From sequence record OR896837.1: a stretch of DNA of 64,000 nucleotides; one strand, written 5' to 3'. Under the pieces are notes generated by a model that saw only the letters and a list, made by a program, of their open reading frames with translations, was not told the origin of the DNA and ran no database searches. This DNA is from Escherichia phage vB_Eco_mar004NP2. The position numbers and the translations under genes are program-made. This document shows, one piece after another, positions 7,946 to 61,283 of the stretch (position 1 is the stretch's first letter; every line of letters begins with the position of its first letter).

Positions 7946-8206
7946 TTATTCTCCCCACTCTTCTAAAGTCTCTAGGTCTGTATCAACTTCGGTATCACAG
8001 CCAACCAGCCCCAAAGAGACAACAATAGTAACGCGATCTTCACGCTGTTCGGGATAAACATCAGCATATTCCCAAGCAGCTTCTTCAACATAATATTGTT
8101 GTTCCTTTTCTGGAAGTGACTTATACTTTTCTTCTGTAATACCCATCTCAACGGCGCGAGTACCACAAACTACGTTATTATTAATAATTAGATATGCATA
8201 GTTCAT
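7946..8206 (-). CDS. hypothetical acidic protein (86 aa)
   Basis: ORF; an alternative overlapping frame also exists. Confidence 0.35.
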   Translation of the reverse strand: MNYAYLIINNNVVCGTRAVEMGITEEKYKSLPEKEQQYYVEEAAWEYADVYPEQREDRVTIVVSLGLVGCDTEVDTDLETLEEWGE

Positions 8207-10840: not shown

Positions 10841-11323
10841 TTACTCTTCGTTGTGCTCCTCAGATTGAGTTAACTGCATTTTATTATATTGCTCAGATCT
10901 ATATTTCGCCAAGATTTCAATACGCTTATGGATTTCCTTGCTATCTAGATAGATATTTTTGTTGTCTTTTACCATCTCGTCTATTTCATCTATTGAGAAG
11001 AACGGATAGTAGACATCTAGCATCATATCTTCTACGAACTTGTTGTAAGATTCATAGGCTTTCTTGATTTCTTGACCTTTCTCACAGAATCCGCCAGAGA
11101 ACGTGTGTCCCATTAGCGTAGCATGTGGATGTACTACCCATCCATGACAGGATAGGAAAATTGTGCAGTAAGCAGAAGCACTAGGACCAACCAGATGTCC
11201 TATAACTGTTCCACGGCAATTAGCAATTAAGTTAGATAACTGTGCAGCAGTATCAACATAACCACCTGGACCATTAATCATCAGATTAATTTCGTCGTCC
11301 TCATTTGCTTGCATAAGTACCAT
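10841..11323 (-). CDS. ClpP-like (S14) serine peptidase, N-terminally interrupted
   Basis: INGPGG, GPSASA and VHPHATLMGH segments align with ClpP catalytic regions; N-terminal part lies in another frame (see findings). Confidence 0.5.
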   Translation of the reverse strand: MVLMQANEDDEINLMINGPGGYVDTAAQLSNLIANCRGTVIGHLVGPSASAYCTIFLSCHGWVVHPHATLMGHTFSGGFCEKGQEIKKAYESYNKFVEDMMLDVYYPFFSIDEIDEMVKDNKNIYLDSKEIHKRIEILAKYRSEQYNKMQLTQSEEHNEE

Positions 11324-11451
11324 TGATAAATCACGGTATTCATCCGGCGGACCGAGTTCTTCATCAAAGAAAAAGGTATACTCATTAGATTGGCGAATGG
11401 AGTGAAACAGGTTAGTCTTTTCTTCTTTTTATTAGTCATAGCGATCCTTGA

Positions 11452-15718: not shown

Positions 15719-15795
15719 TTCAAACCTCTCCCATCAATTTATATAAATATTATAACAAGAAATTAAGCATCAAGCAACTGCGTTTTTCTTGAAAT

Positions 15796-15874: not shown

Positions 15875-16063
15875 ATTAGTAACCATTATATACTTCTTTA
15901 ATAGAGTGAACTTTCAAGTAAGGGTGATTAATCCCAAACTCCGCCATTACTTCTTTCTCATCTTTTCCATAATGAGCAAGTAAGGATTTTGAGGTATTCT
16001 TACCTAAACGTTTGTCACTTACTACTAATCGAAATACTTTCATTTCGAAATCCTCTATTAAAG

Positions 16064-16140
16064 TGGAAGCGGGTGCAGGAATCGAACCTACCTCTTTCTA
16101 GCTTATGAGACTAGCGATCTCTACCAGAGATCTAACCCGC
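16064..16140 (-). tRNA. tRNA with CAU anticodon (Met or Ile2)
   Basis: Anticodon arm CTAGT-CTCATAA-GCTAG; T-loop TTCGATT; imperfect acceptor stem. Confidence 0.55.
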
Positions 16141-16147
16141 AATTGTT

Positions 16148-16225
16148 TGGTCTCCGTGGGAGGATTTGAACCCACGACCCTATCGCCCCAAACGAAACGC
16201 TCTGGCCAAACTGAGCTACACGGAG
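16148..16225 (-). tRNA. tRNA-Pro (anticodon UGG)
   Basis: Perfect acceptor CTCCGTG/CACGGAG + A + CCA; D-arm GCTC/GAGC; loop TTTGGGG; T-stem imperfect. Confidence 0.55.
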
Positions 16226-16600
16226 AATATTATTTCTTTAACCACAGCAAAGATAAGCCCAGCATACTAAAACCGCTAACTAATCCGATACATTTTTCTT
16301 CTATAGTAAAAGTATCTAGATTAAATGCTGTTATAGCTATTGGTATACACCATAATGCCATAAAAACTTGAGCTATCTTGTGTTTCATTTTGCTTTCCTT
16401 CTCTTCACTTTATAAAATATATTATACAGATAATAAAGCAGAATAGCAAATGAATTTTTAATAAATTTACTTATTGTGTAGGCCACCTGGAGGCTACCAA
16501 CCCCACGGCTGACAAAGAAGTTTGCGAGACCTCTCTTAAATGCCAGAATAGACCCGGCGGGTCTATCGGAACCTACATAATAAGTAAACTTTATAGTGTC

Positions 16601-16720
16601 ATTCTAGACAGGACTCGAACCTATTATCACTTGTGCGGACTTACGAGAACCATTCTTTCACTCGAATCGAACGAGCTTCTGCCCTCGCCAAGCTGGTTTC
16701 CCCATCAACCACGCTAGAAT
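16601..16720 (-). ncRNA. tRNA-like structured RNA, about 120 nt
   Basis: Terminal 7-bp pairing ATTCTAG/CTAGAAT, D-like stem GGTT/AACC, T-arm ATAGG-TTCGAGT-CCTGT, but about 70 nt of extra internal sequence and no canonical anticodon arm. Confidence 0.3.
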
Positions 16721-16842
16721 GTTTGATTGTTTTCAGTGCAAGAGTCCGAGTCTTGGACACGACCGCTTCGCAAGTACATAGGCAGCTTATCATGAGTCAG
16801 CACTTCCGAATTGCTAGCTCCGTGTTCTGCACTGAAATTTTG

Positions 16843-17190
16843 TTAATTTAATAGTAAAGTACGATCTACTTCACCATTAATTGTTCGGCATTCTTCTGGG
16901 ATTGCTGGTGTAGTCTTATATTCCCACCATTCAGAACCATCATATTCACCACGTTCTAACCAAGTTCCATCGGTAAACCATACGTTACCATAAAGCAATT
17001 GTCCGCCGAAACCAGAATCATGTTTAAAGTCTAGATTATCTAGAAAATCTTCAATATCTTTTTCTGTATAACCTACGGGTAATACCCAAACTTCTTTATC
17101 CCCATAATAACCGAATTCTATCTTAATACACTTAACTTCAGAATTAGTATTCTTTAGGGCAAGTAACAATTCTTCTTTAGCATTAATCAT
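16843..17190 (-). CDS. hypothetical protein (115 aa)
   Basis: ORF inside the tRNA region. Confidence 0.45.
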   Translation of the reverse strand: MINAKEELLLALKNTNSEVKCIKIEFGYYGDKEVWVLPVGYTEKDIEDFLDNLDFKHDSGFGGQLLYGNVWFTDGTWLERGEYDGSEWWEYKTTPAIPEECRTINGEVDRTLLLN

Positions 17191-17216
17191 AGCATATTTC
17201 TCGTGCTAGTTTAATT

Positions 17217-17291
17217 TGGTACACCCTGTTCGTATCGAACGAACCTCTCAAGCTCTTCAGGCAAGCGCTAATCCATCTCAGCTAAAGGTGC
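17217..17291 (-). tRNA. tRNA-Phe-like (GAA) candidate, possibly defective
   Basis: 75 nt; acceptor GCACCTT/AGGGTGT with 2 G-U pairs; T-arm GTTCG-TTCGATA-CGAAC; loop CTGAAGA; anticodon stem has two T-T mismatches. Confidence 0.4.
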
Positions 17292-17445
17292 AAATTTTGG
17301 CAGGGGTAAAGGTATTCGAAAGCTTGGGCTTCAGAAGTAGCTCTGGCTAACCTATATCCTTTTTTATATTCATCAGGGTATTCTCTATCTTGAATAAACA
17401 CAACATAAACTATGTATAATTCCACTTGTAATCCCCTAATTAAGT

Positions 17446-17523
17446 TGGTGGCTCCCCGAGGATTCGAACCTACGTACCTTCCGGTTATGAGCCGGGTGCT
17501 CATACCATATGAGCTTGAGAACC
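17446..17523 (-). tRNA. tRNA with CAU anticodon (Met/Ile2), second copy
   Basis: Acceptor GGTTCTC/GGGAGCC + A + CCA; D-arm GCTCA/TGAGC; loop CTCATAA; weak T-stem. Confidence 0.5.
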
Positions 17524-17529
17524 AGAATT

Positions 17530-17619
17530 TGGCGGAAGAAGTGGGAATCGAACCCACAAGGCTATATTTCAAACCGACAGATTAGCAATCTGCTGCAATA
17601 CCGTTATGCTATTCTTCCG
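17530..17619 (-). tRNA. tRNA-Ser (anticodon GCU)
   Basis: Acceptor GGAAGAA/TTCTTCC + G + CCA; loop TTGCTAA; long variable arm; perfect T-arm GTGGG-TTCGATT-CCCAC. Confidence 0.65.
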
Positions 17620-17638
17620 AATTTATAAATATATTATA

Positions 17639-18157
17639 TTAGAAATTTAGCTTCATAGCAAGAAAATTTTTCAAGTTTTCGGTAGACATCTCATCCACAT
17701 CTACAGGAGAAACAAATCCATTTAATTGTCTAGCAAATTTTTCACCAGCAGGATCATTATCCCCAACAGCTACCAATTTAAAAGGTAGTAATTTCAATTG
17801 CTTTAACAACGCTTTTCCGGGGGAAGAACCCAACATTGCCAGGGCTGGATAACCAGCGTTATGTAACGCAACTGCCTTAAATACAGATTCAGCAATCAAT
17901 ACTACTTTTTCGTCTCCATTGAGAGTTTCTAGTCCCCGTACACACTGTGTAGTAGAATAAGTAAAATATCTAGCTTCAAAGGGGCATTTACCATGACCTT
18001 TTGGAGCAGAAGGATTATAAGTCTGATAGCCTCTCAACATCCCAGAGAAGTCATACAATGGGACTGTTAGCCATCCTTCTGGGCTTAGCCAGCAGTGATA
18101 TTTATCTGTATCAAACCCTCTAGATAAGAGATGTTCTGTTAGTTCATCAACAGTCAT
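17639..18157 (-). CDS. Toprim-domain protein
   Basis: Conserved Glu in VVLIAESV and acidic cluster VAVGDNDPAGEKFA resemble the Toprim fold. Confidence 0.45.
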   Translation of the reverse strand: MTVDELTEHLLSRGFDTDKYHCWLSPEGWLTVPLYDFSGMLRGYQTYNPSAPKGHGKCPFEARYFTYSTTQCVRGLETLNGDEKVVLIAESVFKAVALHNAGYPALAMLGSSPGKALLKQLKLLPFKLVAVGDNDPAGEKFARQLNGFVSPVDVDEMSTENLKNFLAMKLNF

Positions 18158-18254
18158 TATTTGATCCCCTAGTTAGTTGTATAAATACATTATACAGAAA
18201 AGCCCTGCGTTCTCCAGGAAACACAGGGCTTACTTCGAATATTACGCGTGGATA

Positions 18255-19203
18255 TTACTTATTACGCATATCCATAATCATCTGGCCATCGTAACCAGTG
18301 CCAACCACAGTCTGCGGTACACCACCTTGATACTTCTGAGCACGAATCATTTCAACTTCTAGTTGCTTCCAGCGAATCATCTCAGGAGTAATGGTACGTT
18401 GCAGCGCGGCGTTAGCTTCAGCTTCTTTCTTAGCTGCGTACAGTTTAGCATCTGCGTCGCGTTCGTTAGCAATAGCTTGGTTATTACGAGCTTCACGGTC
18501 TGCTTCTGCTTGTTTAACTTTCTGCTGAGCTTCTTGTTCAACGCGAGCCAGTTCAGCTTTTGCAGCATTAACTTGCTCTTCACGAACTTTGGTATTCTGT
18601 ACCTGTTCCATGATTACTGGTGGCAAAGTAATATCCTGAAGAAACATCTGCTTAACTGTGTAGCCATATGGGCGTGCATACTCTTCAACTTCCTGTTGAA
18701 TTGCAGTTTGCAATTGAGCCTGAATTTTAGCATCAAATAAATCTTGTGCTTTAGGTACAGACTTACCAAACTCACGAATAGTAGACAGTAATTTTTCAGT
18801 TACATATTTGTCTAATGCTTGATCCTGAGTACCTGCATTAATACGGTTAATCGGTGCCTTAGAACCATCAAACTGCAACATAACAGTCAGGTCAACAGTG
18901 GATTTAAACTTATCCTGGCTAGGAACCTGAAGTTTATCTAATTTTTACAGCAATATCTTTTGTACTAAAAGTATCGAAAGATGCAAATGGGTTTACAGGA
19001 TGGAAACCAGGTAATACTGGGTTAGGATCTACTTTACCAAGAAATGTTTGGGTTTTAACCGTACCATCAGAAACAATAGTATATGAATTAAAAGCTAGGA
19101 TTAAACCTGCTAAACCAACTACAGCACCAATCCCCCAACGTTTAATAGTACGAATTACTTTCTGCTCAGAAGTTAGTTCTTTCATATTTTTAGTATTAAA
19201 CAT
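18255..19203 (-). pseudogene. SPFH/band-7 membrane protein, reading frame interrupted (two ORFs, 18934..19203 and 18255..18881)
   Basis: Upstream ORF gives TM anchor plus first SPFH segment; downstream ORF gives the rest plus coiled coil; frames differ by +1 across an A5 run. Confidence 0.5.
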
Positions 19204-19237
19204 ATATTTCCTTTGTTTTAGTTACAGTTAATAAAAT

Positions 19238-19312
19238 TGGCCGAGGTGACAGGATTCGAACCTGCATAAAGGAATTTAGAAGACTCCTGCCTATCCCTTA
19301 GACTACACCCCG
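19238..19312 (-). tRNA. tRNA-Arg (anticodon UCU)
   Basis: Acceptor CGGGGTG/CACCTCG + G + CCA; anticodon arm GGAGT-CTTCTAA-ATTCC; T-arm GCAGG-TTCGAAT-CCTGT. Confidence 0.6.
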
Positions 19313-19814
19313 TTTAAGTATTTTTAAGAACTCTCGTAAAAACTCTTAAAAATACAGACGATACCGGGAGAGTCATAAGTCTCACTCATTAAGTATTTCA
19401 AGACAAAATACAGTAACGTCTATTATTTTCCAGTTTAAGTCAGGGTGACTTAGTGGTTATGTCCTGCGGTATATTGAGGACTCGGTTAGGCTTGGGGTCA
19501 TGACTTCCCACCTTTTGCTGCTACTCAACAGGAGTTATCGCGAATTACCTGTGCTATTGTGCACCATTAGTGACATCTCTCATGTCAGCATTTCCCACTT
19601 TGTGGATAGCTTGAAAAACTACTCCGATATGGAGAAAGAACTTCACTACCCTAGAATACCTTCTAAAGTTCTTCTTTAGCCTAGGCATAGTTAAATCGTA
19701 ATAAAACTATTCAGCAGACTGGTTGGTTAGTCTGGAACCAACTACCGCGTGGTTTAGGCAGTGCGCAACTAACCTCGGAAGCTTTTACGTTAAAAGCATC
19801 AGTTATCCAGTTCT

Positions 19815-19890
19815 TACCGACCGTAGGATTCGAACCTACATCTTCCACCAGTTACGGCTTGATAATACCAATTATACTAGGACGGCAGTG
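19815..19890 (-). ncRNA. tRNA-like element, possible tRNA pseudogene
   Basis: Perfect T-arm GTAGG-TTCGAAT-CCTAC and partial acceptor pairing; no anticodon stem could be folded; no CCA. Confidence 0.3.
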
Positions 19891-20161
19891 TTACTACATA
19901 AGTGATTTCCACACCCCACTATTTATAAATTAGAGAAGAGTTTAGGGGAGAGGTTTCAGACGCCTCATTTTACACGTTCTAGCCACTAACCGGGATTGCC
20001 GCCCCCTGTGTACTAGTTTTACAACTAACCCACCGACTCTATTCAACGAATCTTAGTGCTTGACGCATCTTACATTAAGACAAGTTCAGCGTAATCGGCT
20101 CGCTGTTCTCTAATTTATGAATATATTATACAGAATTTATAAGCATTTAGCAAATAAATTT

Positions 20162-20605
20162 TTAATTAAATTCGCCAGCAATCTGAGCAGCAGTACCACC
20201 ATCATAACGCCCAGGAAATTCTTCCTTAATCGCTTTCATTAGCATACCTTTTGTAATTCCAGGGTTTAGCTTAACTAATTCTGCAAAGTATTTACGAATC
20301 TCAGTATCAGATAACTGAGGAGGCAGATACTCCTGCAACCACTTATTTAGAATGTATTCATACTGAGCGGACTGCAAGCTATAACTATCAAGATCTTGAC
20401 CATGAAGTTTAGCTTTCATCTGGTTAATGCTTTTTAGTTGAGCTTTGAGATAAGACACAAATTGTTCAGAAGTGATGAAATCTTTATTAATACGCTGAAG
20501 ATCCCCGATTATGGTCTGATAGCTTTTAGCGACTTCTTTATCAGAACCATTAAACTTAGAATCCTGCAAAGCTCTACGCAAAACATCTAAAATATTCTCT
20601 TCCAT
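20162..20605 (-). CDS. GatB/YqeY-domain protein
   Basis: C-terminal GMLMKAIKEEFPGRYDGGTAAQI matches the YqeY/GatB C-terminal signature. Confidence 0.55.
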   Translation of the reverse strand: MEENILDVLRRALQDSKFNGSDKEVAKSYQTIIGDLQRINKDFITSEQFVSYLKAQLKSINQMKAKLHGQDLDSYSLQSAQYEYILNKWLQEYLPPQLSDTEIRKYFAELVKLNPGITKGMLMKAIKEEFPGRYDGGTAAQIAGEFN

Positions 20606-20843
20606 TATTTCATTCCTAACGCTTGGTTAAAAGATCGTTCTGTCATAACTGCTGAGACTTTGGCGAAATCAAACTTTTTAGGGTTCGTAGTGATCTCAGC
20701 AACGTTAGAAGTTTTAACAGTTTTCGTAGTACGAATACCGCGAGTGTTAACACCAATAATTACAACTGATTTCATATTTCGCTTCCTCTCATTAATTTAT
20801 GGAAGTATTATACTGAAATTTAAGTATTTAAGCAAGTAAATTT

Positions 20844-21311
20844 TTAAGTTTTAGTGACAACAGGTTTATAAAACGTATGTCCCTTAATCTTAGTTGTTTT
20901 CTTAAACTTCTTTGTCCAGTAAGGTTTATCTTTACCACTATGGAAGTATAGTGCTCCATGTGTAGGATCTTGTGGTAAATCAACGTAGTATATCACTCTA
21001 GCTAAATTCTTGGCGGTTTGCCAAGCCTCATCAGTTTTATCAACTTTTGGTCTCTTAGATACCCAAGAGAACTGGTTAGACTGATATACTACTTTACAGT
21101 AGGAATCTGGGAATTTACCGGAGTTTACACGGTTTTTAGTAACATGTGCAATCGCCGTCATTCCCTTTATGCCCTCACCACGACTTTCGAAATAGATATT
21201 TTTAGCAATGCAATCTATTTCTTTTGCATCGTGCGATGCCTGACTACTAAAGCTGAAGGTAAGGGCAGCTACTAAAAGCAAAGCTGCCTTCATTCTTTTT
21301 ACTCCTGCCAA
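20844..21311 (-). CDS. secreted cell-wall hydrolase (SleB-like)
   Basis: Signal peptide AALLLVAALTFSFSSQA; NIYFESRGE...VTKNR motif. Confidence 0.6.
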   Translation of the reverse strand: MAGVKRMKAALLLVAALTFSFSSQASHDAKEIDCIAKNIYFESRGEGIKGMTAIAHVTKNRVNSGKFPDSYCKVVYQSNQFSWVSKRPKVDKTDEAWQTAKNLARVIYYVDLPQDPTHGALYFHSGKDKPYWTKKFKKTTKIKGHTFYKPVVTKT

Positions 21312-21616
21312 TCATATTCAACACGATTGGGATTTTCTTTATACCCTAAGTCAAGCAAATCATTACGCATATTTTGCTTAGCTACTGGGTTCGAGGTTAC
21401 TAGTACCACTTTCTTTGGTCTCTGCCCAAATTCTAAGAGTAAACGAAGAATTTGATAACCTTCCATACCATCTACAGCCAAGTCATTATCCATATAAACG
21501 AAATGGCCTGTGGTATCAGTTTTATTCAGAAACTCTACAGCGGCTTCTGGGGTTCGAATGATAATGTCCATTCCATGAAGATTACGCACATCATCAATCA
21601 AAATATGAAAAGTCAT
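21299..21616 (-). CDS. hypothetical protein, possible receiver-like fold
   Basis: Weak resemblance only. Confidence 0.35.
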   Translation of the reverse strand: MTFHILIDDVRNLHGMDIIIRTPEAAVEFLNKTDTTGHFVYMDNDLAVDGMEGYQILRLLLEFGQRPKKVVLVTSNPVAKQNMRNDLLDLGYKENPNRVEYDWQE

Positions 21617-21802
21617 AATAGCCTCGTTTCATCAATTTAAAAATATATTATACATATAATTTAGTGGATTAGCAAATACATTTTTAAATTGTGAAACTAG
21701 TAAACCGATAAACAGCCTAGAGGCGCCACAGGCCATATCTTATGAGCCATGTACCTTTGATCTAGGGTTTGAATCATCAACGAATACTTTGCATCTTTTA
21801 GC

Positions 21803-21818
21803 TTTAGAAGTTTAGAAG
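21803..21818. repeat. tandem 8-mer TTTAGAAG x2 in a long non-coding spacer
   Basis: Direct reading of sequence. Confidence 0.8.
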
Positions 21819-22058
21819 TTTGAGTTCTTTAAACTTTTCAGCTTTCATACTTAAATGTTGATCTTTGAAGTTGTGTCGGTAATATCAACGACGCTTTGTT
21901 CTTACGTGTCAGCTTAAAAGGCTGGTGTAATAAACATAATCTCCAATAGATTATACTTTATAGTATGGTCAGCGGTCTTATTTAACCTCGTATTTCAACC
22001 GCTGCTGCGAGGTAAGATGCTTGGGCTTTCGTCTACCGATTTACTAGCTTTTAAATTA

Positions 22059-22697
22059 TTACTCTACTTCAATGAAGGTAGAGGCGTTAGACTCGGACAG
22101 AACAAAGTCAACATTTGTTGCAAAGTCCTGGTATTCCTCGTCATGCTGCTTAATCAGCTTCTCCAGTTCCAGCGGATCAATCAAGAATGGAGTATTCTTG
22201 AGTTCCAGCAGGTTGAGCTGCATTTTAACTTCATCTTCGGAAGTTTTCTTATCGCGGGTAGCCATGCTATCCTGCAAACGCTCATATTTAGCATCAAACT
22301 GTGCTTTCTGCGTATTAAATTTAACCGTAGCGGCATGGAACTGCTTACGCATGTTAGCCAGCAGTTGAGCTTTAAGCTCCATAGAACGCTTAGCTTCAAT
22401 TGCTTCCGCAACAGTCATCTTACGAGAGCCAATCTCAACTACTGTTTCCGCATTGCTCTTAATCAGAGCAGCTTTGATACGATCACGCTGAGACATCATA
22501 TCCAGCAGAGACTGGAAATCTGTCTTAATACGCTCAGATAAATCATCTACTTCGATTGCAGCGCCAACTACAACCTTATTTTTATCCTTACCTTCACCAA
22601 CAGCGATCAGAAGCTGTTGTTCAGTAGCTTTACGGATTTTAGCTTCCAGAGATTTGATAGTTGCTAGAGCGCGAGTTTTAGAGATACGAGTAGTCAT
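22059..22697 (-). CDS. hypothetical coiled-coil protein (212 aa)
   Basis: ORF. Confidence 0.5.
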   Translation of the reverse strand: MTTRISKTRALATIKSLEAKIRKATEQQLLIAVGEGKDKNKVVVGAAIEVDDLSERIKTDFQSLLDMMSQRDRIKAALIKSNAETVVEIGSRKMTVAEAIEAKRSMELKAQLLANMRKQFHAATVKFNTQKAQFDAKYERLQDSMATRDKKTSEDEVKMQLNLLELKNTPFLIDPLELEKLIKQHDEEYQDFATNVDFVLSESNASTFIEVE

Positions 22698-42789: not shown

Positions 42790-43083
42790 ATGACCAAAGC
42801 TGAAATTATCGCACAATGTGAAAAATTTGGTGAGTTTTATCTTCATTACGAGAAACTTCGTCAGAAAGGAACCACGTACCTTCAGGGTACGATGGAATTT
42901 GATCCAGCCCAAGATAAATATCTGGCTGAGCGTATTAAACGTGAACGTATTCGTAAAGCGAAAGATGATGAGATCCTTGTCTTCTCTCGTACTAATGATA
43001 GCTTCCGTTTTATTCCTGTCGAGAAAGTCCGTCGTGTGACTAGCCTCCAATCAGAGTTAGATCGTGCTTCTCCAGTAGGCTGA
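42790..43083 (+). CDS. hypothetical protein (97 aa)
   Basis: ORF. Confidence 0.45.
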   Translation: MTKAEIIAQCEKFGEFYLHYEKLRQKGTTYLQGTMEFDPAQDKYLAERIKRERIRKAKDDEILVFSRTNDSFRFIPVEKVRRVTSLQSELDRASPVG

Positions 43084-45486: not shown

Positions 45487-46246
45487 ACTGAACTGGAACG
45501 TAGAAGGTGTAACCGAGTCTCTGAAAGCAAAAGCCACTGCTCTGGGTGTTGCTGTAATCTCTCAAGAACAAGTAGCTGCTATCGCTGCTGAACTGGCTGC
45601 TGAAACTGGCAAAGACGTTACCGCTCGCTCTGTTGGCTCTAAGCTGCGTAAAGAAGGTTTTGAAGTACAAAAAGCTAACGAAGTACAGAAATCCCCGTGG
45701 ACTCCTGAGCAGGAAGCTGAACTGGTTGATTTCCTGAACGCTCATGCTGGTCAGTATACCTATGCTGAAATCGCTGCTGCTGTAGCTGGTGGTCAATTTG
45801 GTGCTAAGCAGGTACAGGGTAAGATCCTGAGTCTGGAAATGACCGCCTCTGTTAAACCAACTGAAAAAGCTGCTGCTGTTCGTTCCTTCACTCCTGATGA
45901 AGAAACCGATTTTGTTAATCAGGTTGTTGCTGGGGCTACTATTGAAGCTATCGCTGCTCACTTCGGTCGTAATATCAAGCAGATCCGTGGTAAAGCTCTG
46001 AGCCTGCTTCGTGAAGGTCGTATCGCTGCTATGCCGGTACAGGAAACTTCAAGTGCTAAAACTCGTGAAGATCTGTTAGAAGGTCTGGATCTGGCTAACA
46101 TGACTGTTGCTGAGATCGCTGAGAAAACTGGTAAATCTGAGCGCGGTGTTAAATCTATGCTGTCTCGTCGTGGTCTAGTTGCTAAGGACTATGATGGTGC
46201 TGCTAAGCGTGCTAAACTGGATGCAAAAGCTGCGGCTGCTGAATAA
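45479..46246 (+). CDS. Ala-rich protein with four internal repeats, putative abundant DNA-binding protein
   Basis: Repeated ~50-aa units ending in basic helices; codon usage strongly biased to host-preferred codons unlike neighbours. Confidence 0.45.
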   Translation: MSKLNWNVEGVTESLKAKATALGVAVISQEQVAAIAAELAAETGKDVTARSVGSKLRKEGFEVQKANEVQKSPWTPEQEAELVDFLNAHAGQYTYAEIAAAVAGGQFGAKQVQGKILSLEMTASVKPTEKAAAVRSFTPDEETDFVNQVVAGATIEAIAAHFGRNIKQIRGKALSLLREGRIAAMPVQETSSAKTREDLLEGLDLANMTVAEIAEKTGKSERGVKSMLSRRGLVAKDYDGAAKRAKLDAKAAAAE

Positions 46247-46264
46247 TCTGGTAAATTAAACCTA

Positions 46265-46297
46265 AGGGGAGGGGGCTATGCTCCTTCCCCTTTTTTG
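46265..46297 (+). terminator. rho-independent terminator
   Basis: GGGGAGGGGG...CCTTCCCC hairpin + TTTTTT. Confidence 0.5.
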
Positions 46298-46329
46298 CAT
46301 TTAGAAGGCACGAAAGCGTGCAAAGGAGA

Positions 46330-47802
46330 ATGACCTTGTTTAACGTGCAAGCTGTAGTGTTGAAGATGCTTCTTGCTTCTGAACAGAAGCAAATAGCATT
46401 GGAAACATTCTCAAAACTGCATAAAGATCATTTTAATGACGCTTTCTCCTCAATTTACCAAGCCGTCCAGAATTATTATAAAAAATATAACACAATGCCG
46501 TCCATTGACGCACTTATGCTTGAAGCTAATAGGAACGCCCGCCTTTCTCAAGCTCTAGTCGTCTTAGCTAACACTCAAATTCCAGAAGTGAGCATGGAAC
46601 AGGCACTTGAAGTCCTAGAGGCCGAATATACACAAGATTTATTCCTAAAGCTTCTAGAAACAGATGTGCTTCAAGATTTAACAATGCTGGATCAGGGAGA
46701 AATTCTCAACCGAGTTGCCTCCCTTCACTTAAAATTAGAAGAGAAAGTAACGAATACTGGAAAAGTATTCAACGCAGATAACATGCGTATTTTCCAGAGA
46801 GAAGAAGATACCAAACTGAACTTAATCGCTCTTGGTATTTGTAATGAGTTCGACGCTCAAATTGGTTTAGCTCGCACAGAAACGTTACTGCTTGGTGGTT
46901 GGCGTGGTACTGGTAAATCCATTATCTGTTCAAACATACAGGTTCAGCAATATTTGAATGGAGATATTGCTCCATACTTCTCAATTGAGATGAAAGAACA
47001 TGAAGTATTTAGACGTAATCTAGCCATGTTAGCTGGTGTATCAGCATTAGCAATGCGTAATAATACTCTAGAAGGTGCAGCTCTGTTGAGATTGGCCAGA
47101 ACTAGAGCTAGGATGTTCAACGGGGGTGAGGAGCTTTTCGATAACTTCGTTAAACAGTATACAATGGCTAAGATGAGTGATTTCTACGATATGGAGAGTA
47201 AGCTAATAGAAGGATATGAGCTACATACTCCTATGATTATTGTTTATGACCCTGAGCTGTCCATTACAACAGTTGACGTAGAATTAAATAAATTAGTTGC
47301 TAGATACGGAGATAAAGTTACAGTAGCTTTACTGGACTATATTAACCAAACCCGACTTCCAGACTCTAAAACCATTGATATGTATGACTGGAAAGAACAG
47401 ATGGTTGTCAGCTCGTCTTTCAAATCTATCTGCCAGAAACATAACGTGGCTGGTGTAGCTCCTTACCAGATTGATCAAGATGGTAGAACACGTATGTCAA
47501 AGGGGATTCTTGATTCCGCAGACATGGCTGCTAATCTTAATGCTGCAAAAGCTGATAATGGTCAAGGTGCTATTATGTTTGACTTCGTTAAGACCCGTTC
47601 TTCTGATAGCGTGAAGTTTATGCCTAAAATGAACTGGGAAACCCTGCGGATGGATAACACTATCAACCTAGCAATGGAAGATATATCTCAAATGGAAGCT
47701 GAGTTCGTTATCCCTATTGAGAAGGATAAGCCGGCTCAATCTAAACGTGCTAAGAAAGACAAAGCTGAAAATTCAACAGGTGAACAGGCCAGCGATATAT
47801 GA
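46330..47802 (+). CDS. RecA-fold replicative helicase-like ATPase (DnaB-like)
   Basis: Walker A GGWRGTGKS; directly upstream of and coupled to the primase; start uncertain (ATG 46330 or TTG 46336). Confidence 0.5.
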   Translation: MTLFNVQAVVLKMLLASEQKQIALETFSKLHKDHFNDAFSSIYQAVQNYYKKYNTMPSIDALMLEANRNARLSQALVVLANTQIPEVSMEQALEVLEAEYTQDLFLKLLETDVLQDLTMLDQGEILNRVASLHLKLEEKVTNTGKVFNADNMRIFQREEDTKLNLIALGICNEFDAQIGLARTETLLLGGWRGTGKSIICSNIQVQQYLNGDIAPYFSIEMKEHEVFRRNLAMLAGVSALAMRNNTLEGAALLRLARTRARMFNGGEELFDNFVKQYTMAKMSDFYDMESKLIEGYELHTPMIIVYDPELSITTVDVELNKLVARYGDKVTVALLDYINQTRLPDSKTIDMYDWKEQMVVSSSFKSICQKHNVAGVAPYQIDQDGRTRMSKGILDSADMAANLNAAKADNGQGAIMFDFVKTRSSDSVKFMPKMNWETLRMDNTINLAMEDISQMEAEFVIPIEKDKPAQSKRAKKDKAENSTGEQASDI

Positions 47803-48689
47803 GTAGAATAACAGAACTACTTGATCTGAAAGGCATTGAGTATAAAGACACAGGTGGGGACATCCTCATCTGTTGTCTCAATCCAGATCATGACGATAAA
47901 CATCCAAGTTTGCGTATTGATCCTGAAACAGGTATTATGCACTGCTTGAGTTGTGGCTTCGGTAAAGGTATACCGAGCATTTACCATTATTTTAATGAGA
48001 CTCAGTACCGACAGTCTCCAAGACTATCGCAGGTACGTAAAAAGATTTCAGAGATTAGGAATGGATCTACGAATCTTGCAATTCCTGAATCTGCTTACCT
48101 TTTCGAAGGTGATTTCCGAGGTATAAGTTCTAAGACCTTGAAGAAATATTTTGCTTTCCAACACCAAGCAGATTGGGAGGGCAGAATTGTATTCCCAATC
48201 ACAGATGCTGTTGGACGCAATATCCTATTTTTGGGTCGTTCTATAAACAGTTCTGCCCCTCCTAAATACTTAGTAAAACCAAAACAAGTTTCACCACCGA
48301 TTTTCCCTGTACGATATAATACTCCAGTTCTTATTCTAGTTGAAGGTATCTTTGATATGCTGAACCTAGAGGATAATGGTATAGACTATGCTTCTTGCTG
48401 CTTTGGTACACATCAGTTTACTTCGGATAACATTGCAGATAAGTTCAGTCCTTATATTATTGCTGGTGTAAAAGTTGTTGTTATCTTACTAGATAATGAT
48501 GCTTCTGGTAATAAAACTGCACAAGCATTGGCTAAGCTAATTCGTACAAAAACGCGTTTAACACCTGTAGTTGCTAACTTTCTCCTACCTGAAGGCAAAG
48601 ATCCAGGTGATTTAAACAAAGATGAAATTGATATGTTAGCAAAACGTATTGAAATTTTAGTTGCTGAATCGCTTAAAGATTTGGTATAA
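47799..48689 (+). CDS. DNA primase (DnaG-like)
   Basis: Zn-finger CLNPDHDDKHPSLRIDPETGIMHCLSCG; Toprim EGIFDMLNL...DNDASG. Confidence 0.75.
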   Translation: MSRITELLDLKGIEYKDTGGDILICCLNPDHDDKHPSLRIDPETGIMHCLSCGFGKGIPSIYHYFNETQYRQSPRLSQVRKKISEIRNGSTNLAIPESAYLFEGDFRGISSKTLKKYFAFQHQADWEGRIVFPITDAVGRNILFLGRSINSSAPPKYLVKPKQVSPPIFPVRYNTPVLILVEGIFDMLNLEDNGIDYASCCFGTHQFTSDNIADKFSPYIIAGVKVVVILLDNDASGNKTAQALAKLIRTKTRLTPVVANFLLPEGKDPGDLNKDEIDMLAKRIEILVAESLKDLV

Positions 48690-59478: not shown

Positions 59479-59513
59479 CCCCAGTGGATTTTGTCCACTG
59501 GGATTTTCTTTTA
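59479..59513. terminator. bidirectional rho-independent terminator between early and late genes
   Basis: CCCAGTGGA-TTTTG-TCCACTGGG hairpin flanked by A-rich and T-rich runs. Confidence 0.65.
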
Positions 59514-61283
59514 TTGTGATACTAATTGTACCTTTAATTGCTCAAGCTCTTTCTCTAGATCTTCAATCCGTTTAATAAGATCTTGCACAACATGCATAGT
59601 GTCAAGAAGCATTGGAGTTGTATCTAATTCCTTTTGCTCCTGCTCTATTCCGTCATCATTATAAAATTTTCTAGTTTTTACATAAAGTGGTTCTATAGTC
59701 TCTACTTGCTGAGCAATAACCCCACGTCGGACACGAGATTTTTCATCGTTATTATATACAAAGGATTGGAATTCTAATCCTTTTAATACCTCGATGGACT
59801 TAGTTGCGTCTATAGCCTTAATATCATGCTTTAAGCGAGAATCAGATACAGCATTTAATTGCAAAGTATAGGTTGCTGAAGCACCTGGCCACCAAGAATA
59901 AAAATAAATACTATTATTATTCGGCTGAATTTTTAAACGCACACCAAATTTATTATCATCATCTCCCGCTACCTGCCAACAAGAATCTGCAAATGAGCCT
60001 AAGTCATTATGAATTAATCCAAAATGTGCAGATGTCTTATACCCTGCGGAAGAAGACTGGGAACCGCTCAATATACTATTAAAGTTAAATGTACTACCTA
60101 TATTGACCTCGTTCTGAGAAAGAGTACCTTGTACCCAGCCAGTCTGAGACCACGCCATGCCAGTAACTAATCTAGCTTTAAAACGATCCGTTACAAAATC
60201 CCCATTTATCTACAAGCTGGGCGGAATTCGATTTACCGGTAGATTTATTGTCTATTAGTAGTTCAGTAGAGTAGGTGCCACCAATAGTAGCTTTAGCTCG
60301 TAGTGTACTTACAGCCTCACTACTAGTACCTACTTTATACTCAGATAGTACACTCCCGCCATAAACAGTAGTACCAGTATTAGGTTTGACAGCATCACCA
60401 CTAATAACACTCCACGAAGTCTTTGCAGCCACGAACCCACCAGAAGCACGGATTACCCAGACACCTATAAAGCTGTTTGGAATAATAGTACCTTTTATTC
60501 CATAACGCCCATAAACAGGGTCCGCTAAGTTTGCATCAAAACTAAATCCGTATTGGTTATCAGGATTAACTACGGCGAATGATTTAGATGCACCTCCAGG
60601 AGCGGCACCTAAGCCGTTTTCACCACCAATCGCCCCAATAAGACCAAATCTAGATGAATATCTATTAAGCGCTTCTTCATATGCACCAGCAATAGCGCCA
60701 GGAAAACTACCAGTAATATTGGGTGCTGCAGCTTCTGATATTGAACCAGCTTGACCAGCATCCCCCCCCCCCCCACCGTCACCACGAGCGAATAACCCTT
60801 TGATTGAATTTAGTTGCACACCATTACGATCTGGGACGCGGAAAGTAGTGGTACCATCTCCCGTAGAATATTTCCCACGTTGTCCTACATCTGCTAACCA
60901 AACTGAATCATCTATAGCTCCAACCATTTGTGCATACGCCCAAAGTTCAGGCCAGTCAGCCCTGTTAAGAAGCTGCCCATCAGAAACTACCTCATAAGGT
61001 TGAATATACGCACGGCTATCTCGAAGATGAAAATCCCCACCCCGTAGTTCATAACACCATTCATTGTGGGTCCTACTGTGCCAGTATTAAGTTTGTTCTC
61101 CACCCAACGCTTAGTTGCGGCATCATAGTCACTAACAGGATCTCCAGCAAGAGGGGTAGATCCAATAGGACGCACATTTAGCCATGCTGCACGGTCTGCT
61201 AAGTCACTCAGGTTATTATTTTTATTAAGTGACTCATTTTTAAGTTTTGTAATATCCGTAGGAATTACTGTTTTAGTTACCAT
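59511..61283 (-). pseudogene. tail fiber protein with C-terminal intramolecular chaperone/autoprotease domain, split into three ORFs by two frame breaks
   Basis: N-terminus MVTKTVIP...PLAGDPVSDYDAATKRWV; open frame continues in another phase (HNEWCYELRGGDF...); C-terminal ORF carries the SDSRLK autocleavage-type motif. Confidence 0.55.
60762..60774. repeat. 13-nt C/G homopolymer inside the tail fiber coding sequence
   Basis: Read directly; encodes the Gly run GDGGGGGD on the minus strand. Confidence 0.9.

What the first reader, a model, noticed from the sequence alone, without database searches (positions are those of the whole stretch)
18255..19203. SPFH/band-7 membrane protein gene split by a +1 frame change at an A5 run
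ORF 18934..19203 encodes a TM anchor plus the first SPFH segment and ends KDIAVKIR-stop. ORF 18255..18881 encodes the rest of the SPFH domain plus a coiled coil. The second frame opens only 11 nt before the first ORF's stop, across AAAAA (forward TTTTT 18943..18947). Deleting one A gives a continuous protein.
Basis: partly seen in the sequence, partly recalled or inferred. Interest (0 to 1): 0.5.

Follow-up and report, generated by a model that had tools for sequence, protein, structure and literature searches.

The report
Frameshifted SPFH gene in T5-like phage
One extra A has broken a membrane-protein (SPFH/band-7) gene that is intact in every related T5-like phage examined; it is an ordinary knockout mutation (less likely a sequencing error) in a genome carrying many other unselected mutations, not a programmed frameshift.

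Summary
On the minus strand, ORF 18934..19203 (89 aa) and the frame open from 18944 down to 18255 (first ATG 18881, 208 aa) are two halves of one gene. Removing one A from the A5 run gives a 315-aa protein. It differs at one residue from the single 948-nt gene of the closest phages. Its Band_7/SPFH domain (60.9 bits) spans the junction.

The window is a T5-like phage (Tequintavirus). Every relative checked has A4 and an intact gene. No public collection scanned holds the A5 version, except a separate assembly of run SRR27112525, which matches the window exactly over 6.27 kb. So the extra A is in the reads.

Nothing points to programmed frameshifting: the site is not conserved, and there is no SD-like stimulator, slow codon or significant RNA structure.

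The frameshift is one of eight private single-base indels. Others split a lateral tail-fibre gene into three ORFs and detach the start codon of a ClpP-like gene. There are also three private deletions in the tRNA region and 91 private substitutions with a neutral N:S ratio.

Verdict: ordinary loss-of-function mutation, or less likely a consensus error. Low interest.

The parts
18255..19203 (-). Whole disrupted gene (949 nt). It is the orthologue of the T5.080-type SPFH/band-7 membrane protein, which is 948 nt / 315 aa in relatives.
   Evidence: In relatives it is annotated 'lipoprotein', 'band 7 domain-containing protein' or 'putative membrane protein (T5.080)'.
18934..19203 (-). 5' ORF of 89 aa. 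It holds a cytoplasmic N-tail, one hydrophobic anchor (about residues 25-43) and the first SPFH strands. The last two residues (IR) are out of frame, followed by TAA.
   Evidence: hydropathy maximum at residues 25-43. The exact protein is on record as WWD13487.1.
18255..18944 (-). 3' reading frame carrying the rest of the SPFH domain plus an Ala/Glu/Lys/Gln-rich helical region. The frame opens at 18944 and the first ATG is at 18881 (208 aa). I see no Shine-Dalgarno-like sequence before that ATG.
   Evidence: The exact 208-aa protein is on record as WWD13486.1.
18942..18946 (-). A5 run (T5 on the + strand). It has one A more than the A4 of every relative examined. This is the frameshifting insertion.
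   Evidence: Alignment; indel lists; 16 of 16 complete genes from other genome records/contigs have A4 and 315 aa; the A5 27-mer gives 0 hits in IMG/VR, GTDB genomes and JGI metagenomes.
18647..18647 (-). Private missense change Val186 to Met (GTG to ATG) in the 3' part of the same gene.
19207..19214 (-). Ribosome-binding site AAAGGAAA, 3 nt upstream of the ATG at 19203.
   Evidence: Read directly.
18200..18231 (-). Intrinsic-terminator-like hairpin plus T tract just after the gene's stop codon.
   Evidence: 13-pair stem followed by TTCTGTATAA.
19238..19312 (-). tRNA-Arg(UCU) immediately upstream. Relatives have the same gene order.

Best explanation
This is the T5.080-type SPFH/band-7 gene of a T5-like phage (Tequintavirus). 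A lineage-private insertion of one A, turning A4 into A5, has knocked it out. Translation from the normal start yields an 89-aa membrane-anchored stub that ends two codons after the insertion. The remaining 70% of the SPFH domain and the helical oligomerisation region lie in the +1 frame. Their only start is an internal ATG 52 nt downstream with no SD-like sequence that I can see. They are therefore probably not made, and would lack the membrane anchor if they were. The intact protein is inferred, by family membership only, to form membrane-anchored SPFH rings or cages like QmcA, HflK/C or prohibitin. The mutation looks real in the sequenced DNA. It is tolerated because the gene is dispensable under the conditions in which this lineage was propagated. 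The same genome carries a large unselected mutation load. Shown: the one-base insertion, its uniqueness, its presence in an independent assembly of the reads, and the lack of recoding signals. Inferred: loss of function, dispensability and the SPFH mechanism.
For: Relatives have one 948-nt CDS with A4. All 16 complete genes read from other genome records/contigs (some duplicate accessions of the same phages) have A4 and 315 aa. None of 338 phage records reaches 99% identity to the 81-mer that carries A5; all 30 listed rows match 81 query bases to 80 record bases at 98.8%, i.e. the one-base gap. The A5 27-mer gives 0 hits in IMG/VR, GTDB genomes and JGI metagenomes, while the A4 version gives 13 IMG/VR hits. 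The 90% protein cluster has 249 members; the named ones are 314-315 aa, including T5 AAX12012.1. The Band_7 domain spans the junction. The Logan assembly of SRR27112525 is 100% identical to window 15934..22203, including A5, so A5 is the majority state in the reads. The private changes are 91 substitutions against 8 single-base indels. That does not look like homopolymer-error-dominated data (my reading of typical long-read error profiles). The private substitutions are unselected: N:S:noORF is 61:20:10, against 64.6:20.4:6.1 expected at random. A mosaic patch gives N:S 3:39 as an internal control (Fisher p 8.6e-14). Other accessory genes are broken too: the lateral tail fibre is in 3 ORFs, the ClpP-like start codon is uncoupled, there are two nonsense codons, and about 7.8 kb of the tRNA region is deleted. 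The SPFH gene also has a private missense change, V186M.
Against: The sequencing platform and read depth of SRR27112525 could not be inspected. The Logan contig and the GenBank record probably derive from the same reads, so a systematic homopolymer miscall would be shared by both. Several other private indels also sit in short homopolymers (11430, 42250, 46296, 61038), which is the error-prone context. Dispensability of this gene has not been shown experimentally for any T5-like phage in the literature I could search.
Confidence: 0.7

Rival explanations
1. Sequencing or consensus artefact. The phage really has A4 and an intact 315-aa gene, and the extra A is a homopolymer miscall carried into both the GenBank record and the Logan contig.
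For: The change is a one-base length change in a homopolymer. It is unique among all relatives. The window has seven further private single-base indels, several of them in short runs, and four of the eight break otherwise conserved genes. The private substitutions look unselected, as errors would.
Against: An independent k-mer assembly (Logan) reproduces 6,270 bases around the site exactly. That stretch includes A5, nine private substitutions, a private G insertion and two deletion junctions. The same assembly also holds the three tail-fibre fragments. Substitutions outnumber indels by about 11 to 1. Most of the indels are insertions in runs of 5 or fewer, which to my knowledge is unlike typical long-read error profiles. 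The three large deletions cannot be base-calling errors.
Confidence: 0.22
2. Programmed or tolerated +1 ribosomal frameshifting (tRNA-Lys slipping on A-AAA-A), or transcriptional slippage, restores a full-length SPFH protein, so the gene remains functional.
For: A +1 slip of P-site tRNA-Lys from AAA (18945..18943) to AAA (18944..18942) would re-pair perfectly. It would regenerate exactly the ancestral sequence ...AVK-LDKLQ....
Against: The site is not conserved: all relatives encode the protein in one frame. The next zero-frame codon is AUU, not a stop or hungry codon, and there is no SD-like element upstream. The local RNA fold is not significant, z = -1.05. By general knowledge, a run of five A is too short for efficient RNA polymerase slippage. 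The same genome has other plainly disruptive frameshifts and nonsense codons.
Confidence: 0.04
3. A functional two-gene arrangement: a small membrane stub plus a separately translated soluble SPFH/coiled-coil protein.
For: Both pieces were called as genes and deposited as WWD13487.1 and WWD13486.1. The second piece has an ATG.
Against: No homolog is split. The break falls inside the Band_7 domain, so neither piece passes the Pfam threshold alone. I see no SD-like sequence before ATG 18881. The split is one base old relative to phages that are 99.6-99.8% identical.
Confidence: 0.03

Closest known systems
T5.080-type 'putative transmembrane protein' of phage T5 and its orthologues in Tequintavirus/Epseptimavirus (AAX12012.1; DT57C YP_009149839.1; mar004NP2 YP_009824570.1; PHROG 200)
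   Same: Same locus, between tRNA-Arg(UCU) and a Toprim/primase-like gene. The repaired protein is 314/315 identical to the mar004NP2 protein. It has the same N-terminal anchor, Band_7 domain and helical tail.
   Different: In the window the gene has one extra A and is read as 89-aa and 208-aa pieces. It also carries V186M.
Bacterial and mitochondrial SPFH proteins with solved assemblies: E. coli QmcA (PDB 8z5g), prohibitin-2 (8rrh), HflK/C
   Same: Band_7/SPFH domain followed by an Ala/Glu/Lys-rich helical region, with a single N-terminal membrane anchor. phmmer E = 2e-5 to QmcA and 6e-4 to prohibitin-2.
   Different: The sequence relationship is distant. No partner protease or NfeD gene lies next to it. 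The function in phage infection is unknown and was not tested here.
Viable T5 tRNA-region deletion variants T5_123 and T5_Mos
   Same: These are viable T5 variants that have lost 11 or 17 of 24 tRNA genes (PMC12409363). The window likewise lacks about 7.8 kb of this region and keeps only 5 tRNAs. The broken SPFH gene sits at the edge of this dispensable block.
   Different: The window's three deletion junctions are not found in any record of the phage collection. The SPFH lesion is a point frameshift, not part of a deletion.
Programmed +1 frameshift sites (prfB-type CUU UGA C with an upstream SD)
   Same: Only the arithmetic is the same: a +1 shift would join the two frames.
   Different: There is no conservation, no slow A-site codon, no SD stimulator and no structure.

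Membership tests
SPFH / Band 7 (Pfam PF01145) | Band_7 domain match above Pfam's gathering score | tested here: met
   The repaired 315-aa protein scores 60.9 bits against a cutoff of 23.6, over residues 52-225. As encoded in the window, neither fragment passes: the N fragment has no hit and the C fragment scores 21.9 bits.
SPFH / Band 7 (Pfam PF01145) | N-terminal membrane anchor preceding the SPFH domain | tested here: met
   The Kyte-Doolittle 19-residue maximum is 1.79 at residues 25-43 (IGAVVGLAGLILAFNSYTI). No other window after residue 60 exceeds 0.6. No dedicated TM predictor was available.
SPFH / Band 7 (Pfam PF01145) | C-terminal helical or coiled-coil region used for ring or cage assembly | tested here: inconclusive
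   Residues 205-270 are rich in Ala, Glu, Lys and Gln and align with the helical region of QmcA 8z5g. No structure prediction or coiled-coil predictor was run.
SPFH / Band 7 (Pfam PF01145) | Formation of large membrane-associated oligomers | not testable with these tools
   Requires biochemistry or cryo-EM.
Programmed +1 ribosomal frameshift genes | The shift site and two-frame organisation are conserved among homologs | tested here: not met
   All relatives encode one frame with A4. The A5 version is absent from IMG/VR, GTDB genomes and JGI metagenomes.
Programmed +1 ribosomal frameshift genes | A slow A-site codon (stop or rare) and/or an upstream SD-like stimulator or an RNA structure | tested here: not met
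   The A-site codon after AAA is AUU, and no GGAGG-like element lies within 20 nt upstream. Fold z-score is -1.05.
Programmed +1 ribosomal frameshift genes | A trans-frame protein product is detected | not testable with these tools
   Needs mass spectrometry, a western blot or a reporter assay.
Bacterial lipoprotein (the name given in RefSeq, GenBank and PHROG 200) | Lipobox with an invariant Cys after a signal peptide | tested here: not met
   The repaired protein contains no cysteine at all. The 'lipoprotein' label is not supported.
Frameshift pseudogene (disrupted orthologue of an intact gene) | A single indel relative to close intact orthologues, with both halves still recognisably homologous | tested here: met
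   One inserted base; 314/315 identity after repair.
Frameshift pseudogene (disrupted orthologue of an intact gene) | The indel is present in the DNA and is not an artefact | tested here: inconclusive
   An independent assembly of SRR27112525 agrees exactly, but the raw reads and the platform could not be inspected.

The most novel reading that the evidence does not exclude
Loss of the SPFH gene might be adaptive rather than incidental, and linked to the simultaneous disruption of the phage's ClpP-like early protease (A6 to A5 at 11430). Prokaryotic stomatin-type SPFH proteins commonly work with a ClpP-fold NfeD protease (my own knowledge). The phage protease gives a weak NfeD1b_N hit as well as CLP_protease. 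If the two form a phage-encoded SPFH-protease module, this genome would be a natural double knockout that shows the module is dispensable. A second novel reading is low-level +1 slippage on A-AAA-A that keeps some full-length protein.
Probability: 0.05. Interest if true: 0.35.

Novelty: already known. Interest (0 to 1): 0.08.

Why it matters
It matters little for biology. It is a one-base knockout, or miscall, of a conserved accessory gene of unknown role. If the mutation is real, it gives a natural hint that the T5.080-type SPFH protein is dispensable for plaque formation. It also flags this genome record as carrying many disruptive private changes. Annotators should mark the two 'lipoprotein' CDSs (WWD13486/WWD13487) as one disrupted gene. 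The 'lipoprotein' name itself is wrong for this family, because the protein has no cysteine.

Tried and rejected
- Programmed +1 frameshift: rejected. There is no conservation, no stimulatory codon or SD and no significant RNA structure.
- Independent occurrences of the A5 allele: none found in IMG/VR, GTDB genomes or JGI metagenomes, and none among 338 phage records.
- Lab derivative of the original mar004NP2 stock: rejected. There are 184 differences over about 40 kb against LR027384, and PMBT29 is closer. The organism name on the source record is probably species-level (my inference).
- Literature on the run or the phage: nothing for SRR27112525. mar004NP2 appears only in its isolation paper, PMC6563131. 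No paper on a T5 SPFH function was found. One search failed because a search term was too short, and searches were mostly off-target.
- Mutagen signature from the sequence context of the private C>T and C>A changes: inconclusive. There is a mild excess of 3'-C and 5'-pyrimidine neighbours, with no clear UV, EMS or APOBEC pattern.
- NCBIfam gave no family for the protein.
- Structure prediction and fold search were not run, because the Pfam and PDB sequence hits already place the protein.

Full report
**What is in the sequence.** On the minus strand, an ORF runs from ATG 19203 to TAA 18934 (89 aa). A second ORF runs from ATG 18881 to 18255 (208 aa). The second frame is closed by TAA at 18947..18945 and is open from 18944, so the two frames overlap by 11 nt. 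The overlap contains an A5 run, which is T5 at 18942..18946 on the + strand. Removing one A yields a continuous 315-aa protein. The gene has an AAAGGAAA ribosome-binding site ending 3 nt before the ATG. It has a terminator-like hairpin at 18231..18200. tRNA-Arg(UCU) lies directly upstream at 19238..19312.

**What the gene is.** The repaired protein matches Pfam Band_7/SPFH at 60.9 bits (cutoff 23.6) over residues 52-225, straight across the junction at residue 87/88. The 89-aa piece alone matches nothing, and the 208-aa piece alone scores 21.9 bits, below the cutoff. It belongs to PHROG 200. Its closest solved structures by sequence are E. coli QmcA (8z5g, E = 2e-5) and prohibitin-2. It has one strongly hydrophobic segment at residues 25-43, an Ala/Glu/Lys/Gln-rich helical region at about residues 205-270, and no cysteine. 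The database name 'lipoprotein' is therefore unfounded. By family membership I infer that the intact protein forms membrane-anchored SPFH rings or cages. Its role in infection is unknown, and I found no paper on it.

**Where the window comes from.** The window is a T5-like phage (Demerecviridae, Tequintavirus). It is 99.6-99.8% identical over 24 kb to Salmonella phage PMBT29, Escherichia phage vB_Eco_mar004NP2 and Salmonella phage SPLA5b. The exact 89-aa and 208-aa proteins are on record as WWD13487.1 and WWD13486.1. Both are called 'lipoprotein [Escherichia phage vB_Eco_mar004NP2]' and sit on a 98,746-bp record. That record is not the original mar004NP2 stock: the window differs from LR027384 at 184 positions over about 40 kb.

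**Comparison with relatives.**
- In mar004NP2, SIA3lw, DT57C, PMBT29 and SPLA5b the gene is a single 948-nt CDS.
- The alignment shows GTAAAATTAG (A4) in relatives and GTAAAAATTAG in the window, with no other difference nearby.
- All 16 complete genes read from other genome records and IMG/VR contigs (some are duplicate accessions of the same phages) have A4 and encode 315 aa.
- None of 338 phage records matching the 81-mer around the site reaches 99% identity. All 30 listed rows are 98.8% and span 80 bases, which is the one-base gap.
- The A5 27-mer is absent from IMG/VR, GTDB genomes and JGI metagenomes, while the A4 version hits 13 IMG/VR contigs.
- The 90% protein cluster has 249 members; the named ones are 314-315 aa, including T5 AAX12012.1.

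The extra A is therefore a derived state found only in this genome.

**Is it real or an artefact?**
- A separate assembly (Logan) of run SRR27112525 carries the same 89-aa gene.
- That contig is 100% identical to window 15934..22203. The stretch includes A5, nine private substitutions, a private G insertion and two private deletion junctions.
- A5 is thus the majority state in the reads. I could not see the reads or the platform, so a systematic homopolymer miscall is not excluded.
- The private changes are 91 substitutions against 8 single-base indels, and most indels are insertions in runs of 5 or fewer. To my knowledge that is not what homopolymer-error-dominated data look like.
- I put the real mutation at about 0.7 and the artefact at about 0.2.

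**Is it programmed?** No evidence supports this. A +1 slip of tRNA-Lys on A-AAA-A would restore the ancestral sequence. However, the following codon is AUU, there is no SD-like element upstream, and the local fold is unremarkable (z = -1.05). By general knowledge, five A's are too few for efficient transcriptional slippage. The arrangement is also conserved in no relative. A functional two-gene split is equally unlikely: the break falls inside the domain, and I see no SD-like sequence before ATG 18881.

**Context: the frameshift is part of a wider, unselected mutation load.** I compared the window with PMBT29 and SPLA5b together, adding mar004NP2 where it was available. The window has eight private single-base indels.
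- 11430: A6 to A5 at codon 5 of a ClpP-like early protease. This uncouples its start codon, leaving a 160-aa ORF against 199 aa in relatives.
- 16557: outside annotated CDSs.
- 18946: the SPFH frameshift discussed here.
- 42250 and 53559: downstream of stop codons.
- 46296: inside what reads as a terminator T tract.
- 60207 and 61038: these split a 590-aa lateral tail-fibre gene, which has a Peptidase_S74 C-terminus, into three ORFs.

Three private deletions remove about 7.8 kb of the tRNA region. Only 5 tRNA genes remain. No record in the phage collection spans these junctions. Viable T5 variants lacking 11 or 17 of 24 tRNAs are documented (PMC12409363).

Outside a mosaic patch at 46.0-48.6 kb there are 91 private substitutions. 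Of these, 67 change G:C to A:T or T:A in a genome of 38.7% GC. Their split is 61 non-synonymous, 20 synonymous and 10 outside ORFs. Random hits with the same spectrum would give 64.6, 20.4 and 6.1. They include nonsense codons at 7947 and 43081. The mosaic patch, which is presumably old recombined polymorphism, shows 3 non-synonymous against 39 synonymous changes (Fisher p = 8.6e-14). The SPFH gene itself also carries a private V186M change.

This lineage has therefore accumulated mutations without purifying selection. Possible causes are mutagenesis, bottlenecked passage or, less likely, consensus errors. The SPFH frameshift is one of those hits. The sequence context of the substitutions did not identify a mutagen.

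**Verdict.** The feature is an ordinary, lineage-private frameshift that inactivates a conserved accessory SPFH gene, or less likely an assembly error. It is not a recoding signal and not a new kind of element. Interest is low. The by-products worth recording are the unselected mutation load of this genome record, the private tRNA-region deletions, the broken tail-fibre and ClpP-like genes, and the misnaming of this protein family as 'lipoprotein'.

Noticed in passing
whole window (for example 2083, 7834, 9200, 18647, 50123, 62286): There are 91 private substitutions outside a mosaic patch. Their N:S:noORF split is 61:20:10, against 64.6:20.4:6.1 expected for random mutation. 67 of the 91 change G:C to A:T or T:A. 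The lineage looks mutagenised, mutation-accumulated or error-laden. The sequence context gave no clear mutagen signature.
   Followed up: partly
window 46000-48600: A mosaic patch across the DnaB-like helicase region carries 42 private substitutions, with N:S of 3:39 and a balanced GC-to-AT versus AT-to-GC spectrum. It looks like a recombined segment from another T5-like phage. It served as the internal control for the selection analysis.
   Followed up: partly
window 15729-15762, 17213-17226, 17321-17325: These are three deletion junctions, with alignment overlaps of 34, 14 and 5 nt. They remove about 7.8 kb of the tRNA region and leave 5 tRNA genes. No record among 50,697 phage records spans the junctions.
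   Followed up: partly
window 59511-61283 (-): A lateral tail-fibre gene is 589-590 aa in relatives and has a Peptidase_S74 chaperone C-terminus. Here it is split into 98-, 249- and 215-aa ORFs by a -1 indel at 61038 (C5 to C4) and a +1 indel at 60207 (T2 to T3). A poly-Gly-coding C run at about 60769 varies only in multiples of 3 between phages.
   Followed up: partly
window 10841-11439 (-): A ClpP-like early protease matches Pfam CLP_protease and weakly NfeD1b_N. An A6-to-A5 change at 11430, at codon 5, disconnects the start codon from the body of the gene. It was deposited as a 160-aa protein, against 198-199 aa in relatives.
   Followed up: partly
window 7946-7948 and 43081-43083: Two private nonsense substitutions. 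TTA to TAA truncates a 125-aa hypothetical protein to 86 aa. CGA to TGA removes the last 4 codons of a 98-aa protein.
   Followed up: no
window 46270-46300 (+): The hairpin AAGGGGAGG...CCTTCCCCTTTTTT reads as an intrinsic terminator, and a good RBS and ATG lie at about 46330. The annotated 507-aa start of the DnaB-like helicase in relatives appears to lie inside this hairpin, so the start codon in those relatives is probably mis-annotated.
   Followed up: no
window 18255-19203; RefSeq, GenBank and PHROG 200 naming: The protein family is widely named 'lipoprotein', but it has no cysteine and a plain N-terminal TM anchor. 'SPFH/band 7 domain membrane protein' is the supported name.
   Followed up: yes
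window 17639-18157 (-): The downstream 172-aa gene, named 'DNA primase' in RefSeq, matches only a short Toprim_2 domain at 24.5 bits. It is a small Toprim-domain protein, and calling it a primase looks over-stated. It carries a private W-to-R change at 17938.
   Followed up: no
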